From NCBI GenBank assembly GCA_965371465.1, contig CBDUYM010000012.1, positions 15,821-79,820 of the forward strand: a stretch of DNA of 64,000 bases, in the 5' to 3' direction. The stretch comes from an uncultured Alphaproteobacteria bacterium (GTDB lineage: Bacteria; Pseudomonadota; Alphaproteobacteria; CBDUYM01). Below, in pieces: positions 696 to 13,866 of this stretch. Position numbers and translations under genes: made by a program. Numbering within the stretch: the stretch's first letter is position 1; the number at the start of each line of letters is the position of its first letter. Under the pieces are notes generated by a model. That model saw nothing but the letters and a program-made list of their open reading frames with translations, did no database searches and was not told the origin of the DNA.

Positions 696-839
696 GCTTG
701 AGGTCAACTCGGCGCTTCAGGCTTGTCAGTTGCAGCGAAGTACAAGGCTGTATCTGGTCACCGCGTCTGACAGGGACGGAGCCTCCATTGCCGCTCTGAT
801 TTGACGCGATAAGTGTTGTCTGGCGAAGAGCCTTGGCGA

Positions 840-1382
840 TCAGGCCTTCAGCATTTTGGCGATGCGGATCACGTCCTCAGCGATTTTACGAATCTCAATG
901 CCCCGCGCCCTGTTGCTGGCCTGATTCTGCGCGTTCGCTGCCTCGTCGTAGACGGCGAAGGCGAGGCTGGCGAGCTCAGCGGCGTGCAAGCTGGCGCCCT
1001 GATTCGCGGGATCGCTGTCGAAAACATCCGCGACGACTTCAAACGCCTGCTTGAGCCTGGCGGCATCAATCGATGTCATCGAATTCTCGCTGTCTGCCGC
1101 AGCCTCGCTCAGAGGCCGGCCTTTGACCAGGCCAGTATCACGGTATCCAAGCTGCCGGATCACCATTTCCGAGACGCCGCGCGGCGTAAGAATCTCAAGA
1201 AGCTGAGCGATCTTGTCGGCGGGCAGGAAATCTTTTGCGGCCAGCTCCGGATTTTCCCAACGGGCGTAGCCGCTTGGTGTCCTGAAGCCCATCCGTTCCG
1301 CCATTTCAGCCTGAGTGAGGCCGGCGGCTCTGCGCAGCGTCTTCAGCCTGAGGGCTGCTGGTTCATGGATTTCTGTGGTCAT
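840..1382 (-). CDS. XRE-family helix-turn-helix transcriptional regulator (phage repressor-like)
   Basis: HTH motif LRLKTLRRAAGLTQAEMAERMGF near the N-terminus; ORF track gives 840..1547, start refined to MTTEIH (1382) because a TTGACA-N16-TATGAT promoter abuts it; alternative ATGs at 1394/1391. Confidence 0.7.
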   Translation of the reverse strand: MTTEIHEPAALRLKTLRRAAGLTQAEMAERMGFRTPSGYARWENPELAAKDFLPADKIAQLLEILTPRGVSEMVIRQLGYRDTGLVKGRPLSEAAADSENSMTSIDAARLKQAFEVVADVFDSDPANQGASLHAAELASLAFAVYDEAANAQNQASNRARGIEIRKIAEDVIRIAKMLKA

Positions 1383-1389
1383 GGCAACC

Positions 1390-1417
1390 ATCATAAACAC
1401 ATTTTTACTGTTGTCAA
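1390..1417 (-). promoter_or_regulatory. Near-consensus sigma70-type promoter (TTGACA-N16-TATGAT) placed for a leaderless repressor transcript
   Basis: On the minus strand, TTGACA at 1417..1412 and TATGAT at 1395..1390, with the ATG of MTTEIH at 1382..1380, about 7 nt from the -10; no SD before any of the three candidate ATGs. Confidence 0.4.
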
Positions 1418-1482
1418 AAGACATTAAAAGTGTAGTTTTCAGTTTCTCCCTTGATCCTTCTCGAAACAGAAATGGAACCGAC

Positions 1483-1872
1483 ATGCCCCAGGGCCGGATA
1501 AAGAAATTGTCGCGCAAACGATGCTGCGAATGCCAGACAGTGCTCAAGCTGAGCGAATTCAGACGGCACCCCAGAACCCGCGACGGCTACGCGAATATCT
1601 GTCGGAGCTGCATGAGCGCTCGCCCCAAGACTTCAACGCAACCCGCTGCATCCGTCACTGCGACGGCGAGAAGCCAACCAAGCCGTGCCAGCTTGCGTCG
1701 TGTCCGGGCGCTTCGCCATATGTATGAACGTCTGTCGTTACGCGGCTACGATGGAAGGCCCCATGCGAATCCGCTGAGCGCTACACCGGCAGCCGGGCGC
1801 GACGCTCCAGACATGACGAAGCGTCGCGGCTCAATTGGCCTGTCTTATACTCGCGACGAGTCGCAGATATGA
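1483..1872 (+). CDS. Hypothetical protein with Cys-rich zinc-ribbon-like N-terminus (phage-associated)
   Basis: In-frame ATG at 1483 within ORF 1315..1872; motif RKRCCECQ...ICRSC; divergent from the repressor; ATGA stop/start overlap with the next ORF. Confidence 0.45.
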   Translation: MPQGRIKKLSRKRCCECQTVLKLSEFRRHPRTRDGYANICRSCMSARPKTSTQPAASVTATARSQPSRASLRRVRALRHMYERLSLRGYDGRPHANPLSATPAAGRDAPDMTKRRGSIGLSYTRDESQI

Positions 1873-2219
1873 AAACTGCTGCACGGAACTGGCCCAAACC
1901 GCCAGTGGCGCGGGCGAGGTTCGAGGGTCAGGGCCTGACGCGGTATCAGATGCAGTCTCTGGAAGCCTGGCAACGGACGGTGGCTGGTCTCGAACAATTT
2001 GAACAAAAAGGCCCAGCCGTCGACGGGCCGCTTCGGGTTACATACACTATCCGCGGCGGTACGGCTAACACCGATCCACCTCTCGAAGCCTATAGCGGTA
2101 TTCTGACCGAGCAGCTCAGGCGTCTTCAGATCATCACCAGGGAAGCGACAGTCTCCAAGGCCATCATTCAATGGGGTGAAGTGAAAGTCGGCGTTCAGAT
2201 TGAAGTGGAGGAAATCTGA
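1869..2219 (+). CDS. Hypothetical protein (phage-associated)
   Basis: 116-aa ORF tightly packed between neighbours (4-nt overlap upstream, 1-nt gap downstream); no recognisable motif. Confidence 0.4.
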   Translation: MKTAARNWPKPPVARARFEGQGLTRYQMQSLEAWQRTVAGLEQFEQKGPAVDGPLRVTYTIRGGTANTDPPLEAYSGILTEQLRRLQIITREATVSKAIIQWGEVKVGVQIEVEEI

Positions 2220-2220
2220 A

Positions 2221-2799
2221 ATGAACCCAAGAAAAGATCAGCCCGACATGAACGAGACTGAAGAACGCCAGATCCCGACAAAGGAATATCTCGGCCACAA
2301 CCCGAATACCGTTGAAATCCGCGACCGCGATCCCGAGACCGGGGCGATTGTGCTGCACTATGTGAACCTGGATCAGCAGAATCATCCGGTTCTCAGCCGC
2401 CTGAGCAGGAACGGCACAATCACACCTGAGCAGGCAATCGCTGCAGAACGCTTTTACACCGATTACAACGCTGTTGGCTGCGGCCCGAACTATGCGACAG
2501 GTTCCCTGATCCGCATCGACAATGCCCATGGCGTCGATCACGACCATCGTGCCGATGTCCAGGCCCGGTATGACGGCGCCAGGCTACTCTTTATGGGGGC
2601 GGCGCTGTCGCTTCAGGTGAATGTTGTCGGTGAAGGCGAAAGCCTGCGTGCCTGGTGCCGGCGCTGGAACGTCAGCCGCAAGGCTGGCCAACGCCCCTAT
2701 TATCACGCGGAATGCATCGAGCTGCTGCGCGGCGTGCTCAATGATCTCGATGACTATTATCGGACCTGGGATTTACGGGTGAAACGCCGGAAAGCCTGA
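2221..2799 (+). CDS. Hypothetical protein (phage-associated)
   Basis: ATG at 2221 directly after the upstream stop (ORF track start 2200 would overlap); 192 aa, no recognisable motif. Confidence 0.45.
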   Translation: MNPRKDQPDMNETEERQIPTKEYLGHNPNTVEIRDRDPETGAIVLHYVNLDQQNHPVLSRLSRNGTITPEQAIAAERFYTDYNAVGCGPNYATGSLIRIDNAHGVDHDHRADVQARYDGARLLFMGAALSLQVNVVGEGESLRAWCRRWNVSRKAGQRPYYHAECIELLRGVLNDLDDYYRTWDLRVKRRKA

Positions 2800-3410
2800 C
2801 CAGGACTGCCAGGCGTCACCATCAGAACTGTAGCGCCTTGCGACCTCGGCATGGGGCCATCATCCCGGCTGGAACAGATCGGGCGCCAGTCCTTATCCGC
2901 CGCGCTGCGGGGGTTGGCGATTGTGCATCGGGGTCTGAACAGAGGCGACGCCTTTGTGGGGGCCGGTGTCGCGGTTTACAGCGAACTTGCCGGGGGCATT
3001 GCCCGGGTTCTGATCCGATTTCTGGCCCTTGGCCTTTTTAAGGGGTTTGGGCTTTCTGGGTTTTTTGGATTTTGGCATGCTTCAATTTCTCACAAGGTAA
3101 ATAGAGGTCATTCAAATGATTGCAGGGCGTGCATCAGCTCCTGCCGTGCGCCCCAGGACACTTTGCGGTTCGTTAAACCCAATTTTTGCGCATTTGCCTG
3201 AACCACTTGTAAGTCACATTGAAGCAGAGTCCGCATACTAACGGGTTTCGCCTGTCCGATCAATGCCTTAGAGCGGCATGACCGCGAAATTTGACCTTTC
3301 GATCAGTTTACGAGACATTGCGGCACGCTTGGCGTTACTGCGTAAGACAGTGACCAACGACCGAGCGAATTCACAGTCATTCAGAAATACCAAGGAAGAG
3401 TGCGGAGCCC

Positions 3411-3929
3411 TTGCGTCCGAAGAAATTTACTGACGATCTTGCCTCAGCCATCTGCCAGCGGATTGCAGCGGGCGAGACCATCCGGCTGATCTGCCAGGAC
3501 GGCGATATGCCCTCGAAGGCGACACTTTATCGCTGGCTCGCGGCTCCGGCTCAGGCAGCGTTTCGCGATCAGTACGCTGTCGCACTTGAAGCGCGTGCCG
3601 AGCTGATGGCAGAGGAAATTTTAGCCATCGCCGATGATGGGGCGAACGACTTTGTCGAGAAGCAGCTTAAATCAGGCGAAATCACCCATGTGTTTGATTC
3701 AGAGCGGGTGCAGCGGTCCCGGCTTCGCGTCGACGCCCGCAAATGGCTCCTCGCAAAAATGCTGCCCCGGAAATATGGCGATCTGGCTGCGCGCAGCAAA
3801 GCGCGTCACGAGGAAGGGCAATCTCAGGATGGAGAACCCGTAGATTACAAACAGGAACTCAATCGCAAACTGGCTCGCCTTGCAGACCAAATCCGCGCGC
3901 GCGAGCTGGATCGAAAGTCTGACGAATGA
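3411..3929 (+). CDS. Phage terminase small subunit
   Basis: 172-aa protein with N-terminal HTH-like segment (ICQRIAAGETIRLICQDGDMPSKATLYRWL) and RSRLRVDARKWLLAKMLPRKYGD, as in small terminases; TTG start; immediately followed by a large-terminase fragment. Confidence 0.6.
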   Translation: MRPKKFTDDLASAICQRIAAGETIRLICQDGDMPSKATLYRWLAAPAQAAFRDQYAVALEARAELMAEEILAIADDGANDFVEKQLKSGEITHVFDSERVQRSRLRVDARKWLLAKMLPRKYGDLAARSKARHEEGQSQDGEPVDYKQELNRKLARLADQIRARELDRKSDE

Positions 3930-4383
3930 TGAGGCTTCGGACTTACTCAAACGCTGGGAGTTCTGGGCACGACCTGAACAGATGGAACCTTCAGGCAACT
4001 GGCGGGTCTGGGCAATTATCGCTGGACGCGGCTTTGGCAAAACGCGAACCGGCGCAGAATGGGTCATGGCCAATGTCACAGGCGATACGCCAATGGCCAA
4101 AGGCCGTTACGGCCGTATCGCGCTGATCGCTGAAACTGCAGCCGACGCCCGCGACGTGATGGTCGAAGGGGAGAGTGGCATTCTGAATATTGCCGCGAAC
4201 AGTTTCCGGCCTACTTACGAACCATCGAAACGTCGTCTGACCTGGCCTAACGGCGCTGTTGCTTCGACGTTTTGCGCCCCTTACCCGATCCAGTTTGGTG
4301 GCGCGATCCAGAATCTTATTCAGTGCCTGTTCAATCGATCGAAACCTGCGTCGGTTGACATCCTTTACCGCTACGCATTGTAG
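3880..4383 (+). pseudogene. Phage terminase large subunit, N-terminal fragment (truncated remnant)
   Basis: WEFWARPEQ and AGRGFGKTRTGAEWV (Walker-A-like) then RIALIAETAADARDVMVEG match the N-terminal ATPase region of GTA/phage TerL, but the ORF stops after 167 aa; full TerL is roughly 400-450 aa and nothing downstream continues it. Confidence 0.55.
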
Positions 4384-4409
4384 CGGGCGTAAGCAGGGAG
4401 ATTACATGA

Positions 4410-4778
4410 ATGGATAAAGAAAAACTCACGGCAACTGTGAAAGAGGAAGGCTTTCATGCCGCCAGGTTCGCCATGCTGGTGACCATCACACTGGGGCTCA
4501 TTGGCCTTCTACAGGCGGCAGGGCTTGATCTTGATGATGTGCTGCCTGCGACCCGGGCTGATATTCAGTTTCTGGAGCAGGCTCAGGCGCGCGATGACGC
4601 CCTGTGGGCCAACTTCAATCTCATGAACCTGCAGGTGCGCCTTGCCCAGATCCAATCCGAGATCGACGCGACGGGCCCGAAACAAACGCTCATCCAGATC
4701 AAGGCTGATCTCGAACGCCAGATCCGCGAACAGACCCAGGAATACGAAGACGCCTCAAGACGCGCCCGCGAAGCGTAG
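4410..4778 (+). CDS. Hypothetical membrane-anchored coiled-coil protein (possible phage lysis/spanin-like)
   Basis: One N-terminal hydrophobic helix (FAMLVTITLGLIGLLQAAGL) followed by a charged, helical, Q/E/R-rich tail. Confidence 0.35.
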   Translation: MDKEKLTATVKEEGFHAARFAMLVTITLGLIGLLQAAGLDLDDVLPATRADIQFLEQAQARDDALWANFNLMNLQVRLAQIQSEIDATGPKQTLIQIKADLERQIREQTQEYEDASRRAREA

Positions 4779-4820
4779 CGGCAACAATCTCATCCCCCCT
4801 CAACCACAGGAGTAATCCCC

Positions 4821-5027
4821 ATGGATACAAAACCTTTTTACCTGTCCAAAACGCTTTGGGCCAATCTCATTGCCGGCGCAGCGGCCGTGCTCACAGCCTT
4901 CGGCTTTGACCTCGGCCTTGATGTCGAGACCCAGACCGCCATCGTCGGTGGCATCATGGCGCTGGTGAATGTTGTACTTCGCCTGACGACAAACAGCGCA
5001 ATTGGCTTAGGCGGTCAGAACGGATGA
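4821..5027 (+). CDS. Small membrane protein (phage holin-like)
   Basis: 68 aa with two hydrophobic segments; ATGA overlap with the next ORF. Confidence 0.4.
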   Translation: MDTKPFYLSKTLWANLIAGAAAVLTAFGFDLGLDVETQTAIVGGIMALVNVVLRLTTNSAIGLGGQNG

Positions 5028-5260
5028 TCTCCGCCGTTCTGAGCGCTCTTGCTTCCGGTCTTGAGGCCATAAAACTGTGGCTGAAAGGCCGGGAGCGAAG
5101 CGAGCTCAAGCATGCCGGGATCAATGAACAGAAAGTAACGGATCATGAAGCAAAAGATGCCTCGCGCGCCGAAAAACGCCGCCGTGACGATCATATCCGC
5201 CGCGATGTTGACGCTAACGTCCGCCTGCGTCAGCACTTCTACGACCCCCATGATCGGTGA
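5024..5260 (+). CDS. Hypothetical small protein
   Basis: 78-aa ORF with hydrophobic N-terminus and a highly charged tail; translationally coupled to the preceding ORF. Confidence 0.3.
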   Translation: MISAVLSALASGLEAIKLWLKGRERSELKHAGINEQKVTDHEAKDASRAEKRRRDDHIRRDVDANVRLRQHFYDPHDR

Positions 5261-5433
5261 TTTCTGCGACGAGTACACTGTCATCCGGGACGCAGACTCC
5301 CGCCATGTGCGCCTCAACAACGCTGTCTATGTCTGCAAATGCCTGGGGCCAGCTCATGCGCTCTATGCGGCAATCGGTTGCGGCGGCGTGGCAGTCTAGC
5401 CTATGCTCGCCCCTTGCATTAGGGGGAGAGATT

Positions 5434-6705
5434 ATGAAATTTGGTGTATTTTACGAGCTTCAGTTGCCCAAGCCCTGGGATGAGGGGCAGGAGCATGCAT
5501 TGTTTCAGCATGCGCTTGATCAGGTTGTGCTCGCCGACGAGATCGGTATCGATCATGCCTGGGCGGTGGAGCATCATTTCCTGGAAGAATATTCCCATTG
5601 CTCCGCGCCGGAGATTTTCCTGGCCGCAGCGGCGGCGCGGACGAAAAACATTCGTGTTGGCCATGGCATCCGCCAGGTCATTGCAAACTACAACAGTCCT
5701 GCGCGCACGGCGGAATGCATCGCGTCCCTCGATCTTATCTCCAACGGCCGGGTTGATTTTGGTATCGGTGAAGGGGCGACGCGGCTGGAGCTTCATGCTT
5801 TTGATATTCCAGCGCCCGAAAAACGCGCCATGAGCCTGGAGGCTGCCGAACAGATCGCCAATATGATGGCGATGACGCCTTATCCGGGCTATGTGGGAAA
5901 ATCGTTTTCCTTCCCGGCAAGGAACGTCATCCCCAAACCGCTGCAAAAGCCCCATCCTCCCATGTGGATGGCTTGCACCAACCGCGACACGATCAAGATT
6001 GCGGCGCAGAACGGCCTTGGCGCGCTTGCGTTTTCCTTCGTTGATCCCGAGGAAGCCCATAAGTGGAGCGAGATATACTACGACATCATCAAATCTGATG
6101 AATGTGTGCCCCTTGGCCATCGGGTGAATGCGAACATTGCCATGGTCTCATCGTTTTCCATGCATCATGATCGCGCCACCGCCATTCGCCAGGGCCAGGA
6201 GGGGTTCGAGTTCTTTGGCTATGCACTGAGACGCCTTGTAACCGAGGACATTATACCAGGCCACACTGAACATTTCGCAGAATTCCAGAAAATGCGCGGC
6301 AACCGGACCGAAGAGATGATTGCTGAGCTGGATGACCAGTCCGAAGGGATGGAACGTTCCGCCGGCATCGGCACGCCGGATGATTTCCGCAATCACGTCA
6401 ATCAGCTCGAAGCCGCCGGCATCGATCAGGTGATCCTGTTGCAGCAGGCCGGGAACAACACCCATGAACAGATCTGCTCTTCCCTGAACCTGTTCGCCGA
6501 AGAGGTGTTGCCCGAATTCAAGGCCAAGGTCGCCGAGAAGGAAGCGCGGAAAGAAAAGGAACTTGCGCCTTACATTGAGGCGGCGCTTGAGCGGAAAGAC
6601 AAAATGCCGGCACCTGCGGTGGAAGACATCCCGATCGTCAAGGCCGCTGTTGACACCAAAGCCTTCAACGAACGCCGCTACGCCAACCGCAGGAAGGCGG
6701 AGTAG
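5434..6705 (+). CDS. LLM class flavin-dependent oxidoreductase (luciferase-like monooxygenase family)
   Basis: Start refined to MKFGVFYELQLP (ATG 5434, preceded by AGGGGGAGAG); typical LLM N-terminus and length (423 aa). Confidence 0.85.
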   Translation: MKFGVFYELQLPKPWDEGQEHALFQHALDQVVLADEIGIDHAWAVEHHFLEEYSHCSAPEIFLAAAAARTKNIRVGHGIRQVIANYNSPARTAECIASLDLISNGRVDFGIGEGATRLELHAFDIPAPEKRAMSLEAAEQIANMMAMTPYPGYVGKSFSFPARNVIPKPLQKPHPPMWMACTNRDTIKIAAQNGLGALAFSFVDPEEAHKWSEIYYDIIKSDECVPLGHRVNANIAMVSSFSMHHDRATAIRQGQEGFEFFGYALRRLVTEDIIPGHTEHFAEFQKMRGNRTEEMIAELDDQSEGMERSAGIGTPDDFRNHVNQLEAAGIDQVILLQQAGNNTHEQICSSLNLFAEEVLPEFKAKVAEKEARKEKELAPYIEAALERKDKMPAPAVEDIPIVKAAVDTKAFNERRYANRRKAE

Positions 6706-6729
6706 GGGACCCAGAGTTCGATCCACGAC

Positions 6730-6755
6730 CGTTCGCCCTGAGCCTGTCGAAGGGC
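6730..6755. repeat. Solo half-copy of the palindromic intergenic repeat (cgttcgccctgagcctgtcgaagggc)
   Basis: Matches the right arm of the hairpin elements at 20014-20073 and 20395-20477; translates to VRPEPVEG in the overlapping spurious ORF; no partner arm seen upstream. Confidence 0.6.
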
Positions 6756-6836
6756 GGCAGCCGCACGCCTACACCAATAATCGTCTTGAAGTGCGGCCGC
6801 GCGCCGCGCGCTATCAGATCATTGAGAACCCCCCAC

Positions 6837-7139
6837 ATGCCCATCATCCGGGACATCTTCACGCTCGACATTCTGCTGCACAGCATCCTTGGGTTTGCCC
6901 TCATGGGATCAATGTGGGCGATGACGCAAGAGGCGGACTGGACGAACTATGCGCGTTTCTCCGCCATGATCCTCTATCTGCGTGAACTGGGCCAGGTGCA
7001 GGGCCGCTATTACGATAACAATTTCCTGAAGGGCTGGACCCTTGCCGGTGCCGATCCGGATCGTGCGTTTCATCGACACATGGAATGGATCGCGCCGTCG
7101 GTTGTGATTAACTGGGTTACGGTTTCCTGGCTGGTGTGA
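6837..7139 (+). CDS. Hypothetical protein
   Basis: ORF 6786..7139 overlaps the repeat; in-frame ATG at 6837 (MPIIRDIF) is more plausible; one hydrophobic segment. Confidence 0.3.
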   Translation: MPIIRDIFTLDILLHSILGFALMGSMWAMTQEADWTNYARFSAMILYLRELGQVQGRYYDNNFLKGWTLAGADPDRAFHRHMEWIAPSVVINWVTVSWLV

Positions 7140-7200
7140 GCAGGGAAATCATTTCGATCCGCCGGGCAGCCCAAAACCTTACATCGCTAGTCCTCCCCCA

Positions 7201-7226
7201 ACGCTCAGGCCACCCTTCCTGAGCGT
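7201..7226. repeat. Perfect 9-bp inverted repeat hairpin (acgctcagg-N8-cctgagcgt) between convergent genes
   Basis: Read directly; shares the cctgagc core with the palindromic repeat family; no T-run follows on either strand. Confidence 0.35.
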
Positions 7227-7293
7227 GGCCCCGCTGGTGCGTACCATTATGGCGCGCGCTGGCGGGGTTTCTTTGCGTTTCAGGAGGTCGGTT

Positions 7294-7707
7294 TCAGGCC
7301 GGGTTCGTCTCGAAGTGAGGTATGGCCGGGTCAAGGTGAGCCCAATCCGGCGCTGAGGACGTCCACACGTTCGCCAATAATTTGAGTCCATTCGGGTCAT
7401 CCAGTGCGCCAGCTTTCACTACACTGCGTTCCGGCCTCGCGCTGCTGCCGGCGAAAAGCGGCGTGCCGCAATCCGGACAGAATGAACGCCAGACACTATT
7501 GCCGCTGTCGGCCTTGTTTTCGAAAATTTTCGGTTCGCCGCCTATCATCCTGATCTGGTCGCTGGCGATCGGCAGGCTGAACGCAGGCGCGCCACCCGAA
7601 ACATACTGACATTCCCGGCAATGGCAGGCGACGAAGGCGGTAGGCTCTGAGATCAACTCAAATCGAACCGCGCCACACATACAGCCACCTTTGATGGGCA
7701 GATCCAT
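7294..7707 (-). CDS. GFA family protein (glutathione-dependent formaldehyde-activating enzyme / CENP-V-like)
   Basis: Cys motifs GGCMCGAVRFE...CHCRECQ...CPDCGTPLF. Confidence 0.8.
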   Translation of the reverse strand: MDLPIKGGCMCGAVRFELISEPTAFVACHCRECQYVSGGAPAFSLPIASDQIRMIGGEPKIFENKADSGNSVWRSFCPDCGTPLFAGSSARPERSVVKAGALDDPNGLKLLANVWTSSAPDWAHLDPAIPHFETNPA

Positions 7708-7957
7708 GAGTATCTCCTACAGAATAAACTTTGTTTTATATTGACTTCAAAGACATATGAACATATAAAACACAGATCATAAAAAGTCAAAAAAAATTGA
7801 ATTTGTAAACTGTGAATACTATTTTATGAAGAGTATGAAACCAAATTTTTTCGAGTACTTGATAAAATGAACTTCATATTTTCTCTAAAAATAAAAAAGT
7901 GATAAACTGAAATTCAAAATAAACTGATCTATATACGAAATATGAAATGAAGTTGCT
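7708..7957. promoter_or_regulatory. AT-rich (about 75% AT) 250-bp divergent intergenic island with a TTGACT-N17-TATAAA promoter-like element facing hipA
   Basis: Composition differs sharply from flanks; TTGACT at 7741-7746, TATAAA at 7764-7769 on the plus strand; repeated short motifs (aataaact twice). Confidence 0.45.
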
Positions 7958-9196
7958 ATGGCCCAATCACTTTGGGGAAATGTATATCTAGACGGCGGTT
8001 ATGCGGGACAATTGCAGGAAGAACCTGGCGGTCGCTGTGTCTTCATTTACGACGCTGCCTGGGTGGCCGAACGCCGGCCGGCCATCGCCCACACGCTGCC
8101 ACTTCGAGACGAACCTTACATAGACGAAAGGGGCTTGCACCCGTTTTTCGACAATCTCGTTGCGGAGGGGTGGCTTCGGAATGCCCAGGCCCGCGTTCTG
8201 GACGTAGCTCCGAGCAACGGATTTGCCCTGCTTCTCGGATTTGGCAGCGACTTGGCGGGGGCTGTCACTGTTCTTGATCCAGAACAGTCTGCGCGCAGAG
8301 TGTTGGACCAGCCCGATGAAGCAACGAGTGCTGCAATGAAGGGCAGCGCCTCCCTCTCTGGCATCCAAAGAAAGCTGCTCCTGATCAAAAAAGGTAAAGG
8401 CTTTCTGCCTGTCGGACCTGGGGAGCCAAGTACGCACATCGCGAAATTATCTTCGGGAGAACATCAGAACATTCTCGCACTGGAGTATCTGACTACAATG
8501 GCTGTGCGTCATCTGCTGCCAGACGATGACATCGTAGACATGGAAATCATGTTTCTTCCGTCTATTGGCGAAGAGGCACTGGTCATTCCGCGATTCGATA
8601 GGGCGCGGTCCGGGCGACGTCTGCATTTTGAGGAATTCAATCAACTGTTAGGGAAGTATTCAGGCGACGATAAGTACGAAGGGGCGTACCAGGACATGGG
8701 GCATTTCATCCTCAACACGCCAGGCTGCGTTCCGGCTGAGGCGGATCGCCTGCTTCGTCGAATTCTGGCCTGCTTGCTGGTCGGCAACACAGACGCACAT
8801 TTGAAGAACTTCGCGATGTTCCATACCCCGAATGGTCTGCGACTTACGCCTGCCTACGATCTGGTCGCTGGCTCGTACTATGCGGACTATCAGCGAATTG
8901 CTCTGACCGTTGGCGAAGCTCATGATCTGGATATCGGCAAACTGCAAGCGAAGCACCTGTTGTCCTTTGGCGAGGGCAGCTTTGGGGTCGCGGAAGACGC
9001 GGTCGTGCTGGCAATCGAACAGCTTGGAAAGCGGCTGTCGCTTGCACTCGCGGCGATCGAAGAATCGGAATTCGGCTCAAAGGCGCTGCGCACGACGCTA
9101 CAGGAAAGAATGGAGAAGAGATGGAACGGCAGTTTCGCATCAACTGGCCAGCTATTGTCGAAGAGGCAAAACAGAGACGCAAGAGCGAGCGGTTGA
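7958..9196 (+). CDS. hipA: HipA-family serine/threonine kinase toxin (type II TA toxin)
   Basis: 412 aa; HipA N-terminal domain pattern (FFDNLVAEGWLR...LLLGFGSDLAGAVTV), GIQRKLLLIK and catalytic-loop-like VGNTDAHLKNFAMF. Confidence 0.85.
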   Translation: MAQSLWGNVYLDGGYAGQLQEEPGGRCVFIYDAAWVAERRPAIAHTLPLRDEPYIDERGLHPFFDNLVAEGWLRNAQARVLDVAPSNGFALLLGFGSDLAGAVTVLDPEQSARRVLDQPDEATSAAMKGSASLSGIQRKLLLIKKGKGFLPVGPGEPSTHIAKLSSGEHQNILALEYLTTMAVRHLLPDDDIVDMEIMFLPSIGEEALVIPRFDRARSGRRLHFEEFNQLLGKYSGDDKYEGAYQDMGHFILNTPGCVPAEADRLLRRILACLLVGNTDAHLKNFAMFHTPNGLRLTPAYDLVAGSYYADYQRIALTVGEAHDLDIGKLQAKHLLSFGEGSFGVAEDAVVLAIEQLGKRLSLALAAIEESEFGSKALRTTLQERMEKRWNGSFASTGQLLSKRQNRDARASG

Positions 9197-9588
9197 CGCA
9201 GGAACGTCTTGCATCCCTGGCAGGCATAAGTACGCCGACAGTCTCGCGTTTTGAAAACGGCATAAGGGACATCACGCTTTCTTCAGTGATGAAAATTCTT
9301 CGTGTGTTGGGAATGGTTGACGAGCGCGTCATGGAATTCGACGATCCGGCTGCCGGATATGATTTGGATAGGGATCTGGTTTACTTCACCGGACAGATCG
9401 GAAGCGAAGCCGTGCCTTGCGCAATCAGCCGTGAAGCTCTGGAGGATCATTTTGAAAAAGGCAAGAAGAGTCTCCTACAGACTTATCAGGCGAACAGCGT
9501 GCACATTAATCATGAAGCCCGACGCAAGTATCTGGCGCAGAGTCTGGAATCCAATGGTTCCATATTGATTAGAACCGAAGACTTCTGA
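9121..9588 (+). CDS. XRE-family HTH protein with about 90-aa C-terminal extension (putative HipB-like antitoxin encoded downstream of hipA)
   Basis: HTH LTQERLASLAGISTPTVSRFENG; ATG 9121 preceded by GGAGAAGAG; overlaps the 3' end of hipA by 76 nt in another frame. Confidence 0.7.
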   Translation: MERQFRINWPAIVEEAKQRRKSERLTQERLASLAGISTPTVSRFENGIRDITLSSVMKILRVLGMVDERVMEFDDPAAGYDLDRDLVYFTGQIGSEAVPCAISREALEDHFEKGKKSLLQTYQANSVHINHEARRKYLAQSLESNGSILIRTEDF

Positions 9589-9617
9589 CGCGAAATTCAG
9601 ATGCGTCCTGGGTCCGC

Positions 9618-10442
9618 CTAGATCCCGAAATCGGCGCCAGCGAGATCGGGGTCGGTGTTCAGATATTTGGCGGTCGCATCCTCCAGCGCATCAGGCCAGG
9701 TCGCGCCAACTGTGGTGCAGATGTTGCGGGCCAACGGGAGATAGCTGCGTGCCACACCAGCATTGGCGGCAATGACGGATGCTTCGTCATCGGCGACTGC
9801 CGGGATGGATCTCAGAAGTTCCTGCTGATCATCAGTGAGGACAGGAAGGAGCTTCTTGCCGCTCGGCCGGGCGCTGGCTGGCGGGGTCATCAGCATCATC
9901 TCGATCAGCATATTTCGGAGAAGATTGAACCCTTCATGGCCGATATGGACGTCCTTCCGACCATTGACCACGACTGAGAGTCCAAGGACCCGGAAAAATT
10001 CGCTGACATGCCCTTCAATGAGCTCCTTCGGCGGGGCGGGCAGCTCCGGCGTATCGGGCACGCCGTCGTAGACATTTGTCGGATCGTAAACTGCGATCAG
10101 GGGCTGATCGAGAACGCCGGAGTCCATTTCGCCGAGCGAAAGATCAACACGGAGCCAGCCTTCTGTAATCAGACTGAGTACACGCATGCCGCCAAAATCG
10201 AAGTTGTTTTCAAGGACCAGAGGATCGATCTCGGCCACCAGGCCGCGCATCTGATCAGAGAGCTCATCCATGTCGTCTTCGGCAGCGATGATCGTCAGAT
10301 CAAGATCACTGAATCTATCGGCGGTCTCTTGTGCGGCTGAGCCTGAAATAAAGCTCGCCTGAACTTTTGGATGGTTCGTCGTCCAGTCGGTGAAAGCCTC
10401 CAGAACAGGGCCATAGGCTGGATCAAGCATTGAAATGGGCAT
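9618..10442 (-). CDS. Nucleotidyltransferase, aminoglycoside 6-adenylyltransferase (ANT(6)/AadK)-like family
   Basis: N-terminal pattern VQASFISGSAAQETADRFSDLDLTII (GS...D.D nucleotidyltransferase motif) and overall layout resemble AadK; assignment from recalled sequence similarity, not a search. Confidence 0.55.
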   Translation of the reverse strand: MPISMLDPAYGPVLEAFTDWTTNHPKVQASFISGSAAQETADRFSDLDLTIIAAEDDMDELSDQMRGLVAEIDPLVLENNFDFGGMRVLSLITEGWLRVDLSLGEMDSGVLDQPLIAVYDPTNVYDGVPDTPELPAPPKELIEGHVSEFFRVLGLSVVVNGRKDVHIGHEGFNLLRNMLIEMMLMTPPASARPSGKKLLPVLTDDQQELLRSIPAVADDEASVIAANAGVARSYLPLARNICTTVGATWPDALEDATAKYLNTDPDLAGADFGI

Positions 10443-10769
10443 CTAGTTTCCTTCAGTTCGGGCTTCGGCTTTTCGGTAATCCCGGAAGATCACCGGGAAG
10501 GCGGCGATATAGAGAATAAGAGTGACGAATCCAGCAATAGCCAGTGTTCTTAAGACATGGGCCGGCTGCTCTAATTGAAATGCCCGCCCGGCAAGAAAAA
10601 TGACAACGCCAGAGCCCAGCATGACCGCTATCCATGTTCTGACCACCAGCTTCCGATTTACTCCGCGCCTGGCTCGCAAATCAAGAAGCAGGCCGACGAC
10701 GATCACGGCAACGATGCTGAGAGGCGTGACAATATTAGCCGTCAGCAGGCTGAACCAGGGGTCGCCCAT
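10443..10769 (-). CDS. Small integral membrane protein (3 predicted TM helices)
   Basis: 108 aa, hydrophobic; SD GGAG 8 nt before ATG; its TAG stop is directly followed by the ATG of the nucleotidyltransferase. Confidence 0.5.
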   Translation of the reverse strand: MGDPWFSLLTANIVTPLSIVAVIVVGLLLDLRARRGVNRKLVVRTWIAVMLGSGVVIFLAGRAFQLEQPAHVLRTLAIAGFVTLILYIAAFPVIFRDYRKAEARTEGN

Positions 10770-10853
10770 AGCTGTTCTCCGCGTGTTGCTCCAACGTTCG
10801 CGTCATATACTATGCCCTATATATAGTGTGCTGATGCAGTCAGGGAGAGCGAA

Positions 10854-11450
10854 ATGTCGCAGCGTATAGAGCCCGCGAGCCAGAAGGTCCTCGATGATCA
10901 GGAAGAGATTCTCTCGCGATCACGAAATCTGATGGGATTCGTGCCGAACGCCATGCAGGTTATGGCCCTGAGGCCAGAGATTCTGGCCGGATTTTCAGGC
11001 CTGTTCGGCTCGGTTTTTGGGCCCGGATCGCTGGTTGACTCTGGGTTAAAGGAAATGATCGCCCATGTCGCCAGCCGAGCAGCAGGCTGCCAGTACTGTC
11101 AGGCCCATACAGCCCATATCGCCGAAATTTTCGGTGTCTCAGCAGAAAAGGTCGAAGCCCTCTGGACCTATGAGCGGAGCGATCTGTTCACGCCGGCTGA
11201 AAAGGCAGCTCTTTCACTGGCCCAGGCTGCGGGCGTCGTACCAAACGCCGCGACGGACGAACATTTCAGGGAGCTCAAAGAACACTATTCTGACGCACAG
11301 ATTGTCGAAATGCTGGCAACCATATCGCTTTACGGATTTCTCAACCGCTTCAACGATTCTCTCGCCACGGTAATGGAAGACCAGGCAATCGAATTTGCCA
11401 CCGCGCACTTAAGCGCGGGCGGCTGGACCGGCGGGAAGCACGTGAGCTGA
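10854..11450 (+). CDS. Carboxymuconolactone decarboxylase family protein (AhpD-like peroxidase-related)
   Basis: CxxC-H motif region AAGCQYCQAHTAHI typical of the AhpD/CMD fold. Confidence 0.8.
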   Translation: MSQRIEPASQKVLDDQEEILSRSRNLMGFVPNAMQVMALRPEILAGFSGLFGSVFGPGSLVDSGLKEMIAHVASRAAGCQYCQAHTAHIAEIFGVSAEKVEALWTYERSDLFTPAEKAALSLAQAAGVVPNAATDEHFRELKEHYSDAQIVEMLATISLYGFLNRFNDSLATVMEDQAIEFATAHLSAGGWTGGKHVS

Positions 11451-11468
11451 CTTAGTCTCCTCCGTTCG

Positions 11469-12761
11469 TTACCCAGATTTGGCGAGAGCCTGTTCGAGAT
11501 CAGCAACGATATCATCGATGTGTTCGAGGCCGACCGAAAGCCTGACATAACCGTCAGTGACACCTGTTGCCGCCTGTTCCTCCGGCGACAATTGCGAATG
11601 GGTTGTCGATGCCGGATGAATGGCGAGGCTGCGGGCATCGCCGATGTTGGCTACGTGATAGTGCATTTCGAGGCTGTCGATAAACTTTTTGCCGGCGTCA
11701 CCGCCACCTTCGAGCTCAAAGCCGACAAGGCCGCCGTAGCCGCCCGCCATATAGGCATCAGCGCGGCGTTTCATTTCACCGGATTGCAGCCCTGGGAAAA
11801 TTACCTTGGTGACCTGATCCTGACTGGTCAGCCAGTCGGCCACCAGGGCGGCATTTCTCGAATGCTCGCGAATGCGCAGCGGCAACGTCTCCAGCCCCTG
11901 AATAAACTGAAACGCATTCATCGGGCTGATGGCGGGCCCCAGGTCGCGCAACAGAACCACGCGCATGCGAAGGTGATAGGCGATCGGGCCCAGGGGTTTG
12001 ACGGCATCGACCCAGACAGCACCATGATAGCTTGGATCAGGCGTGCTGAAGTTCGGCTGGCGTTCCGCATGGGCTTCCCAGTCGAAGTTGCCGCCATCGA
12101 CAACCGCGCCGCCGATGGACGTGCCATGACCGCCGATGTATTTGGTCAGAGAATAAACCACAATGGCCGCGCCATGATCGAGGGGGCGACAGAGTACGGG
12201 TGCGGCGGTGTTGTCGACAATCAGCGGCACGCCAAATTCGCGCCCGATGTCCGAGACTTCCTGGATCGGAAAGACATGCAGTTTCGGGTTCGGCAAGGTT
12301 TCTGCATAGTAGGCGCGGGTCCGGTCATCGGTGGCCGCGCGGAAGGCTTCCGGGTCAGTCGGGTCAACAAATCTTGTTTCGATGCCCATCTGCGAGAGCG
12401 TATTGGCGAACAGGTTCCATGTGCCGCCGTAGAGATCCGTGGACGAAACAATGTTGTCGCCCGCACTTGCCAGATTTTGGACGGCGAGCGCCGATGCCGC
12501 CTGACCAGAAGCAACGGCAAGTGTTGCGACGCCTCCATCAAGGGCAGTCAGCCGATCTTCCAGCACAGCCTGCGTCGGGTTCATGATGCGCGTGTAAATG
12601 TTGCCAAGCTCTTCAAGCCCGAAAAGCTTCGAAGCGTGTTCGGTTGAATCGAACTGATAGGATGTCGTCTGATAGATGGGCACGGCCACAGCGTTCGTGC
12701 TTTCATCCTTCCTGTAGCCTGCATGCAGAACAATTGTTTCCGGATGTATGCTGTCGACCAT
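11469..12761 (-). CDS. metY: O-acetylhomoserine aminocarboxypropyltransferase / O-acetylhomoserine sulfhydrylase
   Basis: PLP-dependent Cys/Met-metabolism motifs (YTRIMNPT, SLTKYIGGHGTSIGG); start refined to MVDSIHPE (12761), preceded by GGGGGAG. Confidence 0.9.
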   Translation of the reverse strand: MVDSIHPETIVLHAGYRKDESTNAVAVPIYQTTSYQFDSTEHASKLFGLEELGNIYTRIMNPTQAVLEDRLTALDGGVATLAVASGQAASALAVQNLASAGDNIVSSTDLYGGTWNLFANTLSQMGIETRFVDPTDPEAFRAATDDRTRAYYAETLPNPKLHVFPIQEVSDIGREFGVPLIVDNTAAPVLCRPLDHGAAIVVYSLTKYIGGHGTSIGGAVVDGGNFDWEAHAERQPNFSTPDPSYHGAVWVDAVKPLGPIAYHLRMRVVLLRDLGPAISPMNAFQFIQGLETLPLRIREHSRNAALVADWLTSQDQVTKVIFPGLQSGEMKRRADAYMAGGYGGLVGFELEGGGDAGKKFIDSLEMHYHVANIGDARSLAIHPASTTHSQLSPEEQAATGVTDGYVRLSVGLEHIDDIVADLEQALAKSG

Positions 12762-12840
12762 GGTTATCTCCCCCATTTCATTTTTGTTGTCGGCGGAGTT
12801 TGGCGGGAAAATGTACTGAGTTCAACGGTTTTGCAGAGGC

Positions 12841-13866
12841 CTAGACCGGTGCTGCTTCCTTCAGGCGCGCCCAAAGGCCGCGGGTGATTTCGGGCGAGCC
12901 GAAGTCACCGAGGCGCACAAGGACAATGTCGAGGCTGGGCACAATATGAAGCATGCGGTGGAGAGCGCCGAGTGCGGCATACAGGTCGTCCGGTGCATTG
13001 GGAATGAGGGAGCTCCTGATCTCTGCTTGTGTTCCTGTGCCAATGGATATGCCTGGCCGGCCGTTCAGCCACCAGAGCAGACCATAGGCTGGATTGGCAT
13101 TGCTGGAAGACTGCAGGCAATCCGCCAACCAGCCCTTGTTGCCGATGATATCCTGGCCATTCCATTGACCGCCCCTTTGGACCATCAATCCAAACCGGCC
13201 AAGGTCGCGCGCCGATGTCGCAAGGCCTTGCTTGTTGACAAGCGGCCGGTCACCGACCTGAATACGCGGAACCCAGTGGGTTTCATGCATTTGAAGCGGA
13301 TCAAGGAGCCATTCTCTGGTGTAGGTGTCTCGATCGAGGCCGGACACTTCGGCGAGAATTTCGATCATCAGAGCGTAGGCAGGCGTGTTGTAGAACCATT
13401 TTTCACCGGGCGGTGCTTCGAAACGAAGCTGCTCCGAAAGGCCCGAAGTCAGGCTCAGCAGGTGCTGGATGGTAATGGCCTTTTCTACTCTGTTCGTCGC
13501 GTTCGACCAGCCTTTGCCAAGATACTTCCTCACCGGCGTATGCAGTTTCAGCAGCTTCTTTCCAATGGCAATACCGGTCAGGACAGAAACGACGCCTTTC
13601 TGAATTGAGGTGACGTCTTCGATTACGCGATTGTCATCAGTGTGGCCGACCGTAAGATTTGCATATCCAGGTGATATCTCGCCTGCATCGGCAGGATCCC
13701 ATTCGGCCTCGGCCATGATGCGGCCACGATGCAGTATGAGGAATGCGCTCGAACTGGCGGACCTCAAATAGTCCATGGCGGCTTTCAGGGCATCGGCATC
13801 CCAGCCGGCATCTACCGGCTCAATGCGCTCCCACTGGTCGCCCTCAGGATAGTAATTCCTACTCAT
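12841..13866 (-). CDS. Serine hydrolase, beta-lactamase/transpeptidase-like family
   Basis: 341 aa; S-x-x-K active-site motif in SIQKGVVSVL; family-typical size. Confidence 0.75.
   Translation of the reverse strand: MSRNYYPEGDQWERIEPVDAGWDADALKAAMDYLRSASSSAFLILHRGRIMAEAEWDPADAGEISPGYANLTVGHTDDNRVIEDVTSIQKGVVSVLTGIAIGKKLLKLHTPVRKYLGKGWSNATNRVEKAITIQHLLSLTSGLSEQLRFEAPPGEKWFYNTPAYALMIEILAEVSGLDRDTYTREWLLDPLQMHETHWVPRIQVGDRPLVNKQGLATSARDLGRFGLMVQRGGQWNGQDIIGNKGWLADCLQSSSNANPAYGLLWWLNGRPGISIGTGTQAEIRSSLIPNAPDDLYAALGALHRMLHIVPSLDIVLVRLGDFGSPEITRGLWARLKEAAPV

What the first reader, a model, noticed from the sequence alone, without database searches (positions are those of the whole stretch)
7708..7957. 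250-bp AT-rich island in a 60%-GC genome, directly upstream of hipA
The divergent region between the GFA gene and hipA is about 75% AT, far below local composition. It carries a near-consensus TTGACT-N17-TATAAA element (7741-7769) facing hipA and repeated short motifs (aataaact twice, several tgaa/ataaa runs). It could be a strongly regulated promoter with a long 5' UTR, a small RNA, or the scar of a foreign insertion that delivered the hipA module.
Basis: seen in the sequence. Interest (0 to 1): 0.5.

Follow-up and report, generated by a model that had tools for sequence, protein, structure and literature searches.

The report
Operator array of a hipA toxin cassette
The AT-rich island is the promoter and repressor-binding region that travels with a mobile hipA toxin-antitoxin gene pair; this is an ordinary kind of control region, unusual here only in being about twice the usual length.

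Summary
Window 7708-7957 is 23.6% GC against 56.2% for the window, and it is the only such stretch in 64 kb.

It is not an sRNA. There is no Rfam hit, no excess RNA structure and no ORF. It is not an insertion scar either.

It is the regulatory 5' end of a two-gene toxin-antitoxin cassette: hipA (7958-9196), then an HTH+DUF1488 antitoxin gene (9121-9588) that starts inside hipA.

In about 150 related cassettes from hosts of 35-71% GC, the last ~100-120 nt before hipA stays AT-rich. It holds three copies of the 16-bp palindrome ATAAA-N6-TTTAT at about -98, -57 and -16. A -35 (TTG) follows the first copy and the -10 (TAAAAT) lies inside the second. Homology between related cassettes in unrelated contexts starts at about -119.

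The operator type tracks the antitoxin's recognition helix: ATAA-type with SRFE/SHFE/SRLE helices, GTAA..TTAC with N-x-FE. This points to the antitoxin as the binding protein.

The window has degenerate copies at exactly -96/-56/-16. A mirror-image promoter-like element there faces the GFA gene.

Antitoxin binding, repression and start sites are inferred, not shown.

The parts
7708..7957 (.). AT-rich island (23.6% GC) between the divergent GFA and hipA genes
7294..7707 (-). GFA-family gene (137 aa). It is a host neighbour and not part of the cassette
   Evidence: Pfam PF04828, E 7e-31. It is absent from all 160 related loci.
7714..7718 (-). Shine-Dalgarno sequence AGGAG of the GFA gene, 6 nt before its ATG
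   Evidence: Read from the sequence.
7724..7739 (.). Distal operator O-d1, ATAAACTTTGTTTTAT: a perfect ATAAA-N6-TTTAT palindrome and the best site in the window
   Evidence: 15.6 bits against the island's own composition. It is the only 0-mismatch match in the window. It is 18-19 of 19-20 nt identical to operators of relatives.
7741..7769 (+). Distal promoter-like element TTGACT-N17-TATAAA facing hipA. The -10 lacks the final T. The predicted start is near 7776
   Evidence: 10 of 12 consensus matches. Not listed by the stricter scan. Consensus match only.
7765..7780 (.). Distal operator O-d2, ATAAAACACAGATCAT: left half perfect, right half degenerate, 41 nt after O-d1
   Evidence: 8.8 bits. 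The 41-nt spacing equals the family's spacing between the first and second operators.
7762..7790 (-). Promoter-like element on the minus strand, TTGACT (7790-7785)-N17-TATATG (7767-7762), facing GFA. Its -10 overlaps the -10 of the plus-strand element
   Evidence: 9 of 12 consensus matches. Consensus match only.
7812..7827 (.). Weak operator-like site GTGAATACTATTTTAT (right half perfect)
   Evidence: 5.5 bits. Marginal.
7839..7861 (.). Expected left boundary of the canonical cassette, at about -119 to -99 from the hipA ATG
   Evidence: Homology limits of cassette pairs that sit in different contexts. Placed here by analogy.
7862..7877 (.). Proximal operator O-p1, ATAAAATGAACTTCAT, at -96
   Evidence: 10.5 bits. 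The family's first operator clusters at -99 to -94.
7880..7908 (+). Proximal promoter at the family's position: decayed -35 TTTCTC, 17 nt, then TG-n-TAAACT (an extended -10 inside O-p2). The predicted start is near 7915
   Evidence: Family profile: TTG at -22 to -20 from the second operator, a 17-nt spacer, and TAAAAT at operator positions 1-6. Window sequence.
7902..7917 (.). Proximal operator O-p2, ATAAACTGAAATTCAA, at -56
   Evidence: 4.0 bits. The family's second operator clusters at -58 to -53.
7942..7957 (.). Proximal operator O-p3, ATGAAATGAAGTTGCT, at -16, abutting the hipA ATG
   Evidence: 5.0 bits. The family's third operator clusters at -17 to -14. All three canonical positions are occupied in 0 of 5000 shuffles.
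7958..9196 (+). hipA, a HipA-family Ser/Thr kinase toxin of 412 aa, full length. The Gly-rich loop (SLSGIQRK), the catalytic motif (DAHLKN) and the YD motif are all present
   Evidence: Pfam Couple_hipA (E 6e-24) and HipA_C (E 3e-36). Translation. Closest solved structure is S. oneidensis HipA, 4PU3.
9121..9588 (+). Antitoxin gene (155 aa) with an N-terminal Xre/HipB-type HTH and a C-terminal DUF1488. It starts 76 nt inside hipA, behind its own GGAG
   Evidence: Pfam HTH_3 and DUF1488. NCBIfam couple_hipB/Y4mF subfamily hit, below its cut-off. A homologous downstream gene is present in 78 of 80 loci with a conserved overlap. Sequence.

Best explanation
The island is the promoter-operator region of a reverse-order hipA-hipB type II toxin-antitoxin cassette. 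In this cassette the toxin gene comes first, and the HTH(-DUF1488) antitoxin gene starts inside the toxin gene's 3' end.

The family's regulatory unit is about 100-120 nt long. It holds three 16-bp palindromes, ATAAA-N6-TTTAT, spaced about 41 bp apart, which is roughly four helical turns. The first palindrome sits just upstream of the -35 (TTG...). The left half of the second is the -10 (TAAAAT). The third abuts the hipA start codon.

The most likely mechanism is as follows. Dimers of the HTH antitoxin, alone or with HipA bound, occupy these palindromes. That blocks RNA polymerase at the -35/-10 and obstructs the early transcribed region, so the operon represses itself as E. coli hipBA does. 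When antitoxin is lost, the promoter opens.

The AT-richness is the direct result of selection on these AT-only half-sites and promoter hexamers, so it survives in genomes of up to 71% GC.

In this window the canonical unit is present at 7862-7957 with its geometry intact but with weakened sites. A further ~130 nt of AT-rich DNA upstream (7708-7838) carries a consensus operator, a second operator 41 nt later and a near-consensus promoter. It probably also carries the divergent promoter of the GFA gene. That distal part is most simply an extra copy of the regulatory unit, either a duplication or the remnant of an earlier cassette.

Shown: composition, motif content, motif positions, conservation, cassette boundaries, and the link between operator type and recognition helix. 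Inferred: who binds, repression, which promoter fires, and the origin of the distal half.
For: 1. AT-richness travels with hipA. In 80 related loci from hosts of 35-71% GC, the last 100 nt before hipA is 7-44% GC.

2. The motif is concentrated upstream of hipA. The strict core TAAA-N6-TTTA occurs 129 times within 200 nt upstream of hipA and 24 times in the remaining ~850 kb. Sites cluster at -98, -57 and -16.

3. A promoter is interleaved with the operators. When loci are aligned on the second operator, TTG lies at -22 to -20, a 17-nt spacer follows, and TAAAAT falls on operator positions 1-6.

4. The window fits this layout. PWM sites lie at -96, -56 and -16; 0 of 5000 shuffles fill all three canonical positions. 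There are 6 sites against 0.54 expected in the whole island. Eight of the 16 window matches to ATAAA-N6-TTTAT (up to 2 mismatches) lie in the island.

5. The region belongs to the cassette. Homology between related cassettes in unrelated contexts runs from about -119/-99 to about +1640 (L001/L022 at 95% identity, L049/L052, L077/L080). None of the window's neighbouring genes occurs in any of the 160 loci.

6. The antitoxin is the likely binder. A homologous HTH gene lies downstream in 78 of 80 loci. Recognition helices of the SRFE/SHFE/SRLE type go with ATAA-type operators in 113 loci. Helices T[IVL]N-x-FE go with GTAA..TTAC operators in 10 loci. No locus has the opposite operator type; 21 loci could not be called.

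7. Selection acts on the sites rather than on base composition. In 83 loci whose hipA is high in GC, operators stay at about 18% GC. The spacers average 34% and follow hipA GC3 (r 0.71 across all loci).

8. There is a precedent. In the reverse-order HipAB of Shewanella putrefaciens CN-32, HipB and HipA-HipB repress the promoter upstream of hipA 2-3 fold (PMC8978831). HipB binding to palindromic operators is the accepted model for hipBA (PMC8262856).
Against: 1. No binding, footprint or transcript data exist for any member of this family.

2. The helix/operator correlation may rest on a single evolutionary event in one clade (loci L070-L080).

3. The window's own canonical operators are weak. 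Their summed score is 18 bits against a family median of 42, below the family's 25th percentile. Its proximal -35 has decayed to TTTCTC. Autoregulation at the canonical position may therefore be impaired here.

4. The window's spacers are far more AT-rich (19% GC) than in 97.6% of the high-GC loci. The operator model alone does not explain this.

5. The duplication idea for the distal half rests on site geometry only. Self-identity at an offset of 138 nt is 44% against 33% expected (z 2.5), which is not significant among the ~190 offsets tested.

6. A full-length nhmmer profile of the family's upstream region hits only the island, but with marginal E-values of 0.045-0.27.
Confidence: 0.8

Rival explanations
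1. Only the proximal ~120 nt is the toxin-antitoxin control region. The distal ~130 nt (7708-7838) is an inert relic, such as the orphaned left end of an earlier cassette or slippage-expanded AT-rich DNA. It now serves at most as the host GFA gene's promoter.
For: The cassette boundary in relatives lies at about -119. No cassette from a host of at least 52% GC has an island over 176 nt, whereas the window's is 262 nt. The third distal site is weak or absent (0.2-5.5 bits). A promoter-like element facing GFA lies in this segment. The GFA gene has no other upstream DNA in which to place a promoter.
Against: The best operator in the whole window (15.6 bits, 0 mismatches) and the best promoter match (10 of 12) both lie in this segment. 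They keep the family's 41-nt operator spacing, and the -35 lies between the operators. Decaying neutral DNA in a 56% GC genome would be expected to gain GC, yet this DNA is about 24% GC. Arrays of 4-5 operators exist in relatives (L027, L028, L031, L067).
Confidence: 0.3
2. The island is kept AT-rich mainly as a target for a nucleoid-associated silencer of AT-rich or foreign DNA (MucR/Ros-type in Alphaproteobacteria, H-NS-like elsewhere), or for DNA curvature, rather than for antitoxin binding.
For: The window's spacers are unusually AT-rich as well (19% GC, lower than in 97.6% of high-GC loci). The island contains long A and T runs. The host appears to be an alphaproteobacterium (best MetY relatives). 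That such silencers prefer AT-rich tracts is established knowledge and was not tested here.
Against: Across the family the conserved features are specific palindromes at fixed positions, not general AT content. In high-GC loci the spacers rise to about 34% GC on average, and up to 60%, while the operators stay near 18%. Operator sequence tracks the antitoxin's recognition helix. The same architecture occurs in phyla with different silencers.
Confidence: 0.1
3. The island encodes a small RNA or a structured 5' leader (riboswitch, RNA antitoxin or thermosensor) that controls hipA.
For: If the distal promoter fires, a leader of about 180 nt would be made. The island is non-coding.
Against: No Rfam family matches above threshold. 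The best E-values are 4-8, to eukaryotic snoRNA and miRNA models. The minimum free energy equals that of shuffles on both strands (z -0.10 and -0.57). In relatives the leader is only about 44 nt, and its conserved element is a DNA palindrome made of A-T pairs.
Confidence: 0.04

Closest known systems
E. coli K-12 hipBA promoter-operator region (HipB operators TATCC-N8-GGATA; Black et al. 1994, Schumacher et al. 2009/2015; summarised in PMC8262856)
   Same: A HipA-family kinase toxin is paired with an Xre/HipB-type HTH partner. Several copies of a palindromic operator overlap the promoter directly upstream of the operon. [quoted passage not shown]
   Different: The gene order is reversed (toxin first), and the antitoxin gene starts 76 nt inside hipA. 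The operator is ATAAA-N6-TTTAT, not TATCC-N8-GGATA, and none of the latter lies in the island. The family has three sites at about 41-bp spacing. The antitoxin carries a C-terminal DUF1488. HipA similarity to E. coli HipA is only E 1e-11 to 1e-12.
Reverse-order hipAB subclades (Hip tree clades VI/VII) and hipEB (clade IX) of Gerdes et al. 2021 (PMC8262856)
   Same: The kinase gene is followed by a gene for an HTH protein. These modules were recognised bioinformatically as toxin-antitoxin modules, and none was tested experimentally at the time.
   Different: That paper does not describe promoters or operators for these modules, the gene overlap, or a DUF1488 domain. Which clade the present HipA falls in was not tested here.
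HipAB of Shewanella putrefaciens CN-32 genomic island GI21 (PMC8978831)
   Same: This is a reverse-order hipA-hipB module. The promoter upstream of hipA is repressed 2-3 fold by HipB and by HipA-HipB. The module sits on a mobile element and stabilises it.
   Different: Its HipA has 448 aa. Its HipB (152 aa) has the HTH at the C-terminal end. The two genes are 4 bp apart rather than overlapping. No operators were mapped. It belongs to a different subfamily.
Shewanella oneidensis MR-1 HipBA (PDB 4PU3/4PU4)
   Same: It is the closest solved relative of both proteins by sequence: HipA E 5e-18 and the HipB HTH E 9e-5. It is a DNA-bound toxin-antitoxin repressor complex.
   Different: It has the canonical hipB-hipA gene order, a different operator sequence and no DUF1488.

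Membership tests
HipB-type autoregulated toxin-antitoxin promoter-operator (hipBA paradigm) | Lies directly upstream of an operon that encodes an intact HipA-family kinase | tested here: met
   Pfam Couple_hipA (E 6e-24) and HipA_C (E 3e-36). The protein is full length, and the Gly-rich loop, DxHxKN and YD motifs are visible in the translation.
HipB-type autoregulated toxin-antitoxin promoter-operator (hipBA paradigm) | The operon encodes an Xre/HipB-type HTH partner | tested here: met
   HTH_3 E 1e-12. NCBIfam couple_hipB/Y4mF scores 48.7 bits, below its 71.65 cut-off. A homologous downstream gene is present in 78 of 80 loci.
HipB-type autoregulated toxin-antitoxin promoter-operator (hipBA paradigm) | Multiple palindromic operators overlap the -35/-10 elements | tested here: met
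   There are three family-conserved ATAAA-N6-TTTAT sites, with the -35 between the first two and the -10 inside the second. Window sites lie at -96/-56/-16, with further sites at 7724 and 7765.
HipB-type autoregulated toxin-antitoxin promoter-operator (hipBA paradigm) | The antitoxin binds the operators and represses transcription | not testable with these tools
   The support is indirect: the recognition-helix type matches the operator type in 123 loci and never the opposite type, with 21 loci uncalled. There is also the experimental precedent in another reverse-order hipAB module (PMC8978831).
E. coli-type hipBA specifically | Gene order hipB then hipA, with operator TATCC-N8-GGATA | tested here: not met
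   The order is hipA then the HTH gene. No TATCC-N8-GGATA match with up to 2 mismatches lies in the island; the window has 18 matches against 14.4 expected by chance.
Reverse-order hipAB / hipEB modules (Gerdes 2021) | The kinase gene is followed by the HTH antitoxin gene | tested here: met
Reverse-order hipAB / hipEB modules (Gerdes 2021) | Placement of the kinase in clade VI, VII or IX of the Hip tree | not tested
Shewanella CN-32-type HipAB | HipB with a C-terminal HTH, and genes separated by a few bases | tested here: not met
   Here the HTH occupies residues 17-67 of 155 and the genes overlap by 76 nt.
Known small RNA / cis-regulatory RNA families (Rfam 15) | A covariance-model match at the family's gathering score | tested here: not met
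   There were 0 matches at gathering thresholds in the whole window. Around the island (7400-8300) the only matches were at E 4-8, to eukaryotic snoRNA and miRNA models.

The most novel reading that the evidence does not exclude
The distal half of the island is a working bidirectional control region. Its two back-to-back promoter-like elements (TTGACT 7741-7746 on the plus strand, TTGACT 7790-7785 on the minus strand) have overlapping -10 hexamers, and both lie under or beside family-type operators (7724, 7765). The antitoxin of a mobile toxin-antitoxin cassette would then also repress the neighbouring host GFA gene. A selfish module's repressor would have been recruited as a regulator of host metabolism, with kinase-toxin activity and GFA expression coupled through antitoxin level.
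Probability: 0.12. Interest if true: 0.5.

Novelty: new member of a known kind. Interest (0 to 1): 0.3.

Why it matters
It explains a striking compositional anomaly without invoking anything exotic. An 8-sd AT spike in a GC-rich genome can be the signature of a toxin-antitoxin operator array rather than a sign of recent foreign origin or of an RNA gene.

At family level it gives an untested reverse-order hipA/HTH-DUF1488 cassette a concrete regulatory model that can be tested directly. The model has three ATAAA-N6-TTTAT operators at 41-bp spacing, a promoter interleaved with them, and a cassette boundary just upstream of the first operator. A natural specificity switch to GTAAA...TTTAC, paired with a Ser-to-Asn change in the recognition helix, could guide mutagenesis.

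For annotation, the motif and its geometry are a usable marker of the 5' end of these cassettes.

Tried and rejected
1. Known RNA. An Rfam E-value search around the island and a gathering-threshold search of the whole window gave nothing credible. The window has no tRNA or tmRNA.

2. RNA structure. Folding the putative leader and the minus strand gave energies equal to shuffles.

3. Hidden small gene. The island contains only a 45-aa and a 30-aa minus-strand TTG ORF of low plausibility.

4. Recent tandem duplication of the regulatory unit. Self-comparison at an offset of 138 nt gave 44% identity against 33% expected, which is not significant among the ~190 offsets tested. I keep it only as an inference from site geometry.

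5. Full-length profile of the family's upstream region (nhmmer). Its only hits in the window are in the island, but the E-values are marginal (0.045-0.27) because of the composition-bias correction. The per-site matrix with shuffle controls was more informative.

6. Empty-site or orthologous-intergenic test:
- The exact HipA is not on record.
- The best HipA relatives are at most 71% identical in both the genome and metagenome collections.
- The MetY anchor found a 100% identical protein whose contig could not be retrieved.
- The next candidate contig is only about 71% identical at the DNA level and only 3 kb long.

7. Plasmid origin. There is no DNA match for 5200-13000 and no HipA match at E 1e-60 in PLSDB.

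8. Operator-like repeats at the right end of the cassette, which would hint at a recombination site. No clustering was found.

9. Extra hipA or antitoxin fragments elsewhere in the window. None was found.

10. Literature. No paper in the library links HipA with DUF1488. PDB entry 9U9G (a 153-aa HipB) matches only the HTH, and no paper for it was found.

Full report
**1. The observation**

Window 7708-7957 is 23.6% GC. The window as a whole is 56.2% GC, and 250-nt windows have sd 4.0%, so the island is about 8 sd low. No other 100-nt stretch in the 64 kb drops below 35% GC.

The island lies between two divergent genes.
- On the left is a minus-strand GFA-family gene (7294-7707).
- On the right is a plus-strand hipA (7958-9196; Couple_hipA + HipA_C).
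- hipA is followed by a 155-aa gene (9121-9588). It encodes an N-terminal Xre/HipB-type HTH plus a C-terminal DUF1488. It starts 76 nt inside hipA, behind its own GGAG.

Its -10 lacks the conserved last T, which is why the stricter scan did not list it. The host is about 56% GC, not 60%.

**2. What relatives show**

HipA relatives of 50-71% identity were fetched: 80 loci from species-representative genomes and 80 from metagenomes. They come from Gamma- and Alphaproteobacteria, Nitrospira, Vampirovibrio, Elusimicrobia and others.

- *Composition.* Locus GC in the 80 genome loci ranges from 33 to 71%. In nearly all of them the last 100 nt before hipA is 7-44% GC, whereas hipA itself follows the host.
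- *Motif.* Reading these upstream regions shows a repeated 16-bp palindrome, ATAAA-N6-TTTAT. Its strict core TAAA-N6-TTTA occurs 129 times within 200 nt upstream of hipA and 24 times in the other ~850 kb.
- *Positions.* Sites cluster at -99 to -94, -58 to -53 and -17 to -14, which gives about 41 bp between centres.
- *Promoter.* When 111 loci are aligned on the second operator, a TTG appears at -22 to -20, followed by a 17-nt spacer. TAAAAT then falls on operator positions 1-6. The -35 therefore lies between the first and second operators, the -10 is inside the second, and the third abuts the ATG.
- *Operator number.* Most loci have 2-3 sites above the scoring threshold, and a few have 4-5 sites in the same 40-nt register.

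**3. The region belongs to a mobile cassette**

None of the window's neighbouring genes (GFA, nucleotidyltransferase, luciferase-like monooxygenase, CMD and others) occurs in any of the 160 loci.

Related cassettes in unrelated contexts share homology from about -119/-99 to about +1640 and nothing beyond. Examples are L001/L022 (95% identity over -119 to +1639), L049/L052, L077/L080 and L004/L005.

The AT-rich operator region is therefore the left end of a roughly 1.75-kb two-gene cassette.

**4. Who binds**

A homologous HTH gene lies downstream in 78 of 80 loci. It always starts 30-108 nt inside hipA.

The operator type partitions cleanly with the antitoxin's recognition helix.
- Helices of the T[IVL]S[RH]FE type (plus three TVSRLE and two SVS[RH]FE) go with ATAA-type sites in 113 loci.
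- T[IVL]N-x-FE goes with GTAA..TTAC sites in 10 loci.
- No locus has the opposite type, and 21 loci could not be called.

This supports the antitoxin as the operator-binding protein. It may reflect a single evolutionary event, and no biochemical data exist.

The window's helix is TVSRFE, so ATAAA-N6-TTTAT is predicted as its target.

**5. Why the region is AT-rich**

In 83 loci whose hipA is high in GC, operators stay at about 18% GC. Spacers average 34% and follow hipA GC3 (r 0.71 across all loci).

The AT spike is thus maintained by selection on AT-only half-sites and promoter hexamers. It is not a sign of recent arrival. GC3 of hipA (0.59) and of the antitoxin gene (0.55) is only slightly below that of the neighbours (0.60-0.67).

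**6. The window's own island**

I scored the island with a matrix built from relatives, against the island's own composition.

| Site start | Position relative to hipA ATG | Score (bits) |
|---|---|---|
| 7724 | -234 | 15.6 |
| 7765 | -193 | 8.8 |
| 7812 | -146 | 5.5 |
| 7862 | -96 | 10.5 |
| 7902 | -56 | 4.0 |
| 7942 | -16 | 5.0 |

- Six non-overlapping sites reach 4 bits, against 0.54 expected, and 0 of 500 shuffles reach that number.
- The last three sites sit at the family's canonical positions. In 5000 shuffles none filled all three.
- At the family's promoter position the window has TTTCTC-N17-TAAACT preceded by TG, that is, a decayed -35 with an extended -10.
- The canonical operators are weak. 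Their summed score is 18 bits against a family median of 42.

Upstream of the expected cassette boundary (about 7839) lie another ~130 AT-rich bases. They contain the following.
- The only perfect operator in the window (7724-7739).
- A second operator 41 nt later (7765-7780).
- The 10-of-12 promoter match facing hipA.
- A 9-of-12 promoter match on the minus strand, TTGACT 7790-7785, N17, TATATG 7767-7762. It faces GFA and its -10 overlaps the plus-strand -10.

The island is 262 nt by a common measure. That is longer than in any of 90 cassettes from hosts of at least 52% GC (median about 115 nt, maximum 176 nt). Its spacers, at 19% GC, are more AT-rich than in 97.6% of high-GC loci.

The geometry (-234/-193 against -96/-56) suggests a second copy of the regulatory unit. 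Sequence identity at that offset is not significant, however, so the origin of the distal half remains an inference.

**7. Rivals**

- *Small RNA or structured leader.* This is not supported. There is no Rfam match, folding energies equal those of shuffles and there is no plausible ORF.
- *Insertion scar.* This is replaced by 'functional end of a mobile cassette'.
- *Distal half as an inert relic or merely the GFA promoter.* This remains possible (about 0.3).
- *Silencer or curvature role for the AT tract.* This cannot be excluded for the window's unusually AT-rich spacers, but it does not explain the position-specific palindromes seen across phyla.

**8. Comparison with what is known**

In kind this is the HipB-type autoregulatory operator array known from E. 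coli hipBA, where HipB binds palindromic operators (PMC8262856). It is not that system. The gene order is reversed, the operator sequence differs (no TATCC-N8-GGATA in the island), the genes overlap, and the antitoxin carries DUF1488.

Reverse-order hipAB and hipEB modules were catalogued bioinformatically, without promoter analysis (PMC8262856).

One reverse-order HipAB, from Shewanella putrefaciens CN-32, was shown to repress its own promoter 2-3 fold. Its HipB has a C-terminal HTH and its genes do not overlap (PMC8978831).

The closest solved structures are S. oneidensis HipA and HipB. No paper in the library links HipA with DUF1488.

**9. What could not be done**

No close relative of the host or of this particular cassette is retrievable.

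**10. Verdict**

This is a real and strongly non-random feature with an ordinary explanation: the promoter-operator region of a toxin-antitoxin cassette.

The family-level operator architecture appears not to have been described. The window's copy is atypically long and partly decayed, with a possibly bidirectional distal unit.

Novelty: new member of a known kind. Interest: about 0.3.

Noticed in passing
window 9121-9196; loci L001-L080 at about +1160 to +1240 from the hipA ATG: The antitoxin gene starts inside the 3' end of hipA in a different frame. The overlap is 76 nt here and 30-108 nt in 78 of 80 relatives, most often about 69-75 nt. The overlapped part encodes the highly conserved antitoxin N-terminus MERQFRINW.... 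A long two-frame overlap conserved like this is unusual for toxin-antitoxin pairs. It may set the toxin:antitoxin translation ratio.
   Followed up: partly
loci L070-L074 and L076-L080 (Nitrospira, Micavibrio and relatives): In this clade the antitoxin is only 66-67 aa (HTH alone, no DUF1488). The operators are GGTAAA-N6-TTTACC and the recognition helix has Asn in place of Ser. DUF1488 is therefore dispensable for the module, and this clade offers a natural change of specificity.
   Followed up: partly
window 800-5300: This looks like a degraded prophage or gene-transfer-agent-like remnant 2.5-7 kb upstream of the island. It includes a cI-like HTH repressor ORF (840-1547, minus strand), a small-terminase-like ORF (3411-3929), a truncated large-terminase-like ORF (3880-4383) and small membrane/holin-like ORFs (4410-5260). 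These readings come from the ORF translations only and were not checked with profiles.
   Followed up: no
window 1393-1408: ATAAACACATTTTTAC is a one-mismatch match to the operator palindrome. It lies in the moderately AT-rich region next to the phage-repressor-like ORF. About 0.35 strict core matches are expected by chance in 64 kb (my own estimate), so it is probably coincidental.
   Followed up: partly
loci L008 and L011 (same contig CAWDUG010000013.1, 40 kb apart); L009: One metagenome-assembled genome carries two near-identical copies of the cassette with identical upstream flanks, which points to a larger duplicated segment. In L009 about 166 extra nt lie between the shared upstream flank and the cassette compared with L008.
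   Followed up: no
window 9618-10442 (minus strand): The gene convergent with the antitoxin gene encodes a 274-aa protein with weak nucleotidyltransferase matches (Polbeta, and an MntA-antitoxin-like hit), all below the curated cut-offs. It ends only 30 nt from the antitoxin stop. Whether it belongs to another toxin-antitoxin or defence pair was not examined.
   Followed up: no
window 62431-62703: This is the second-lowest GC stretch of the window (minimum 41% in 250 nt). It is far milder than the hipA island and was not examined.
   Followed up: no
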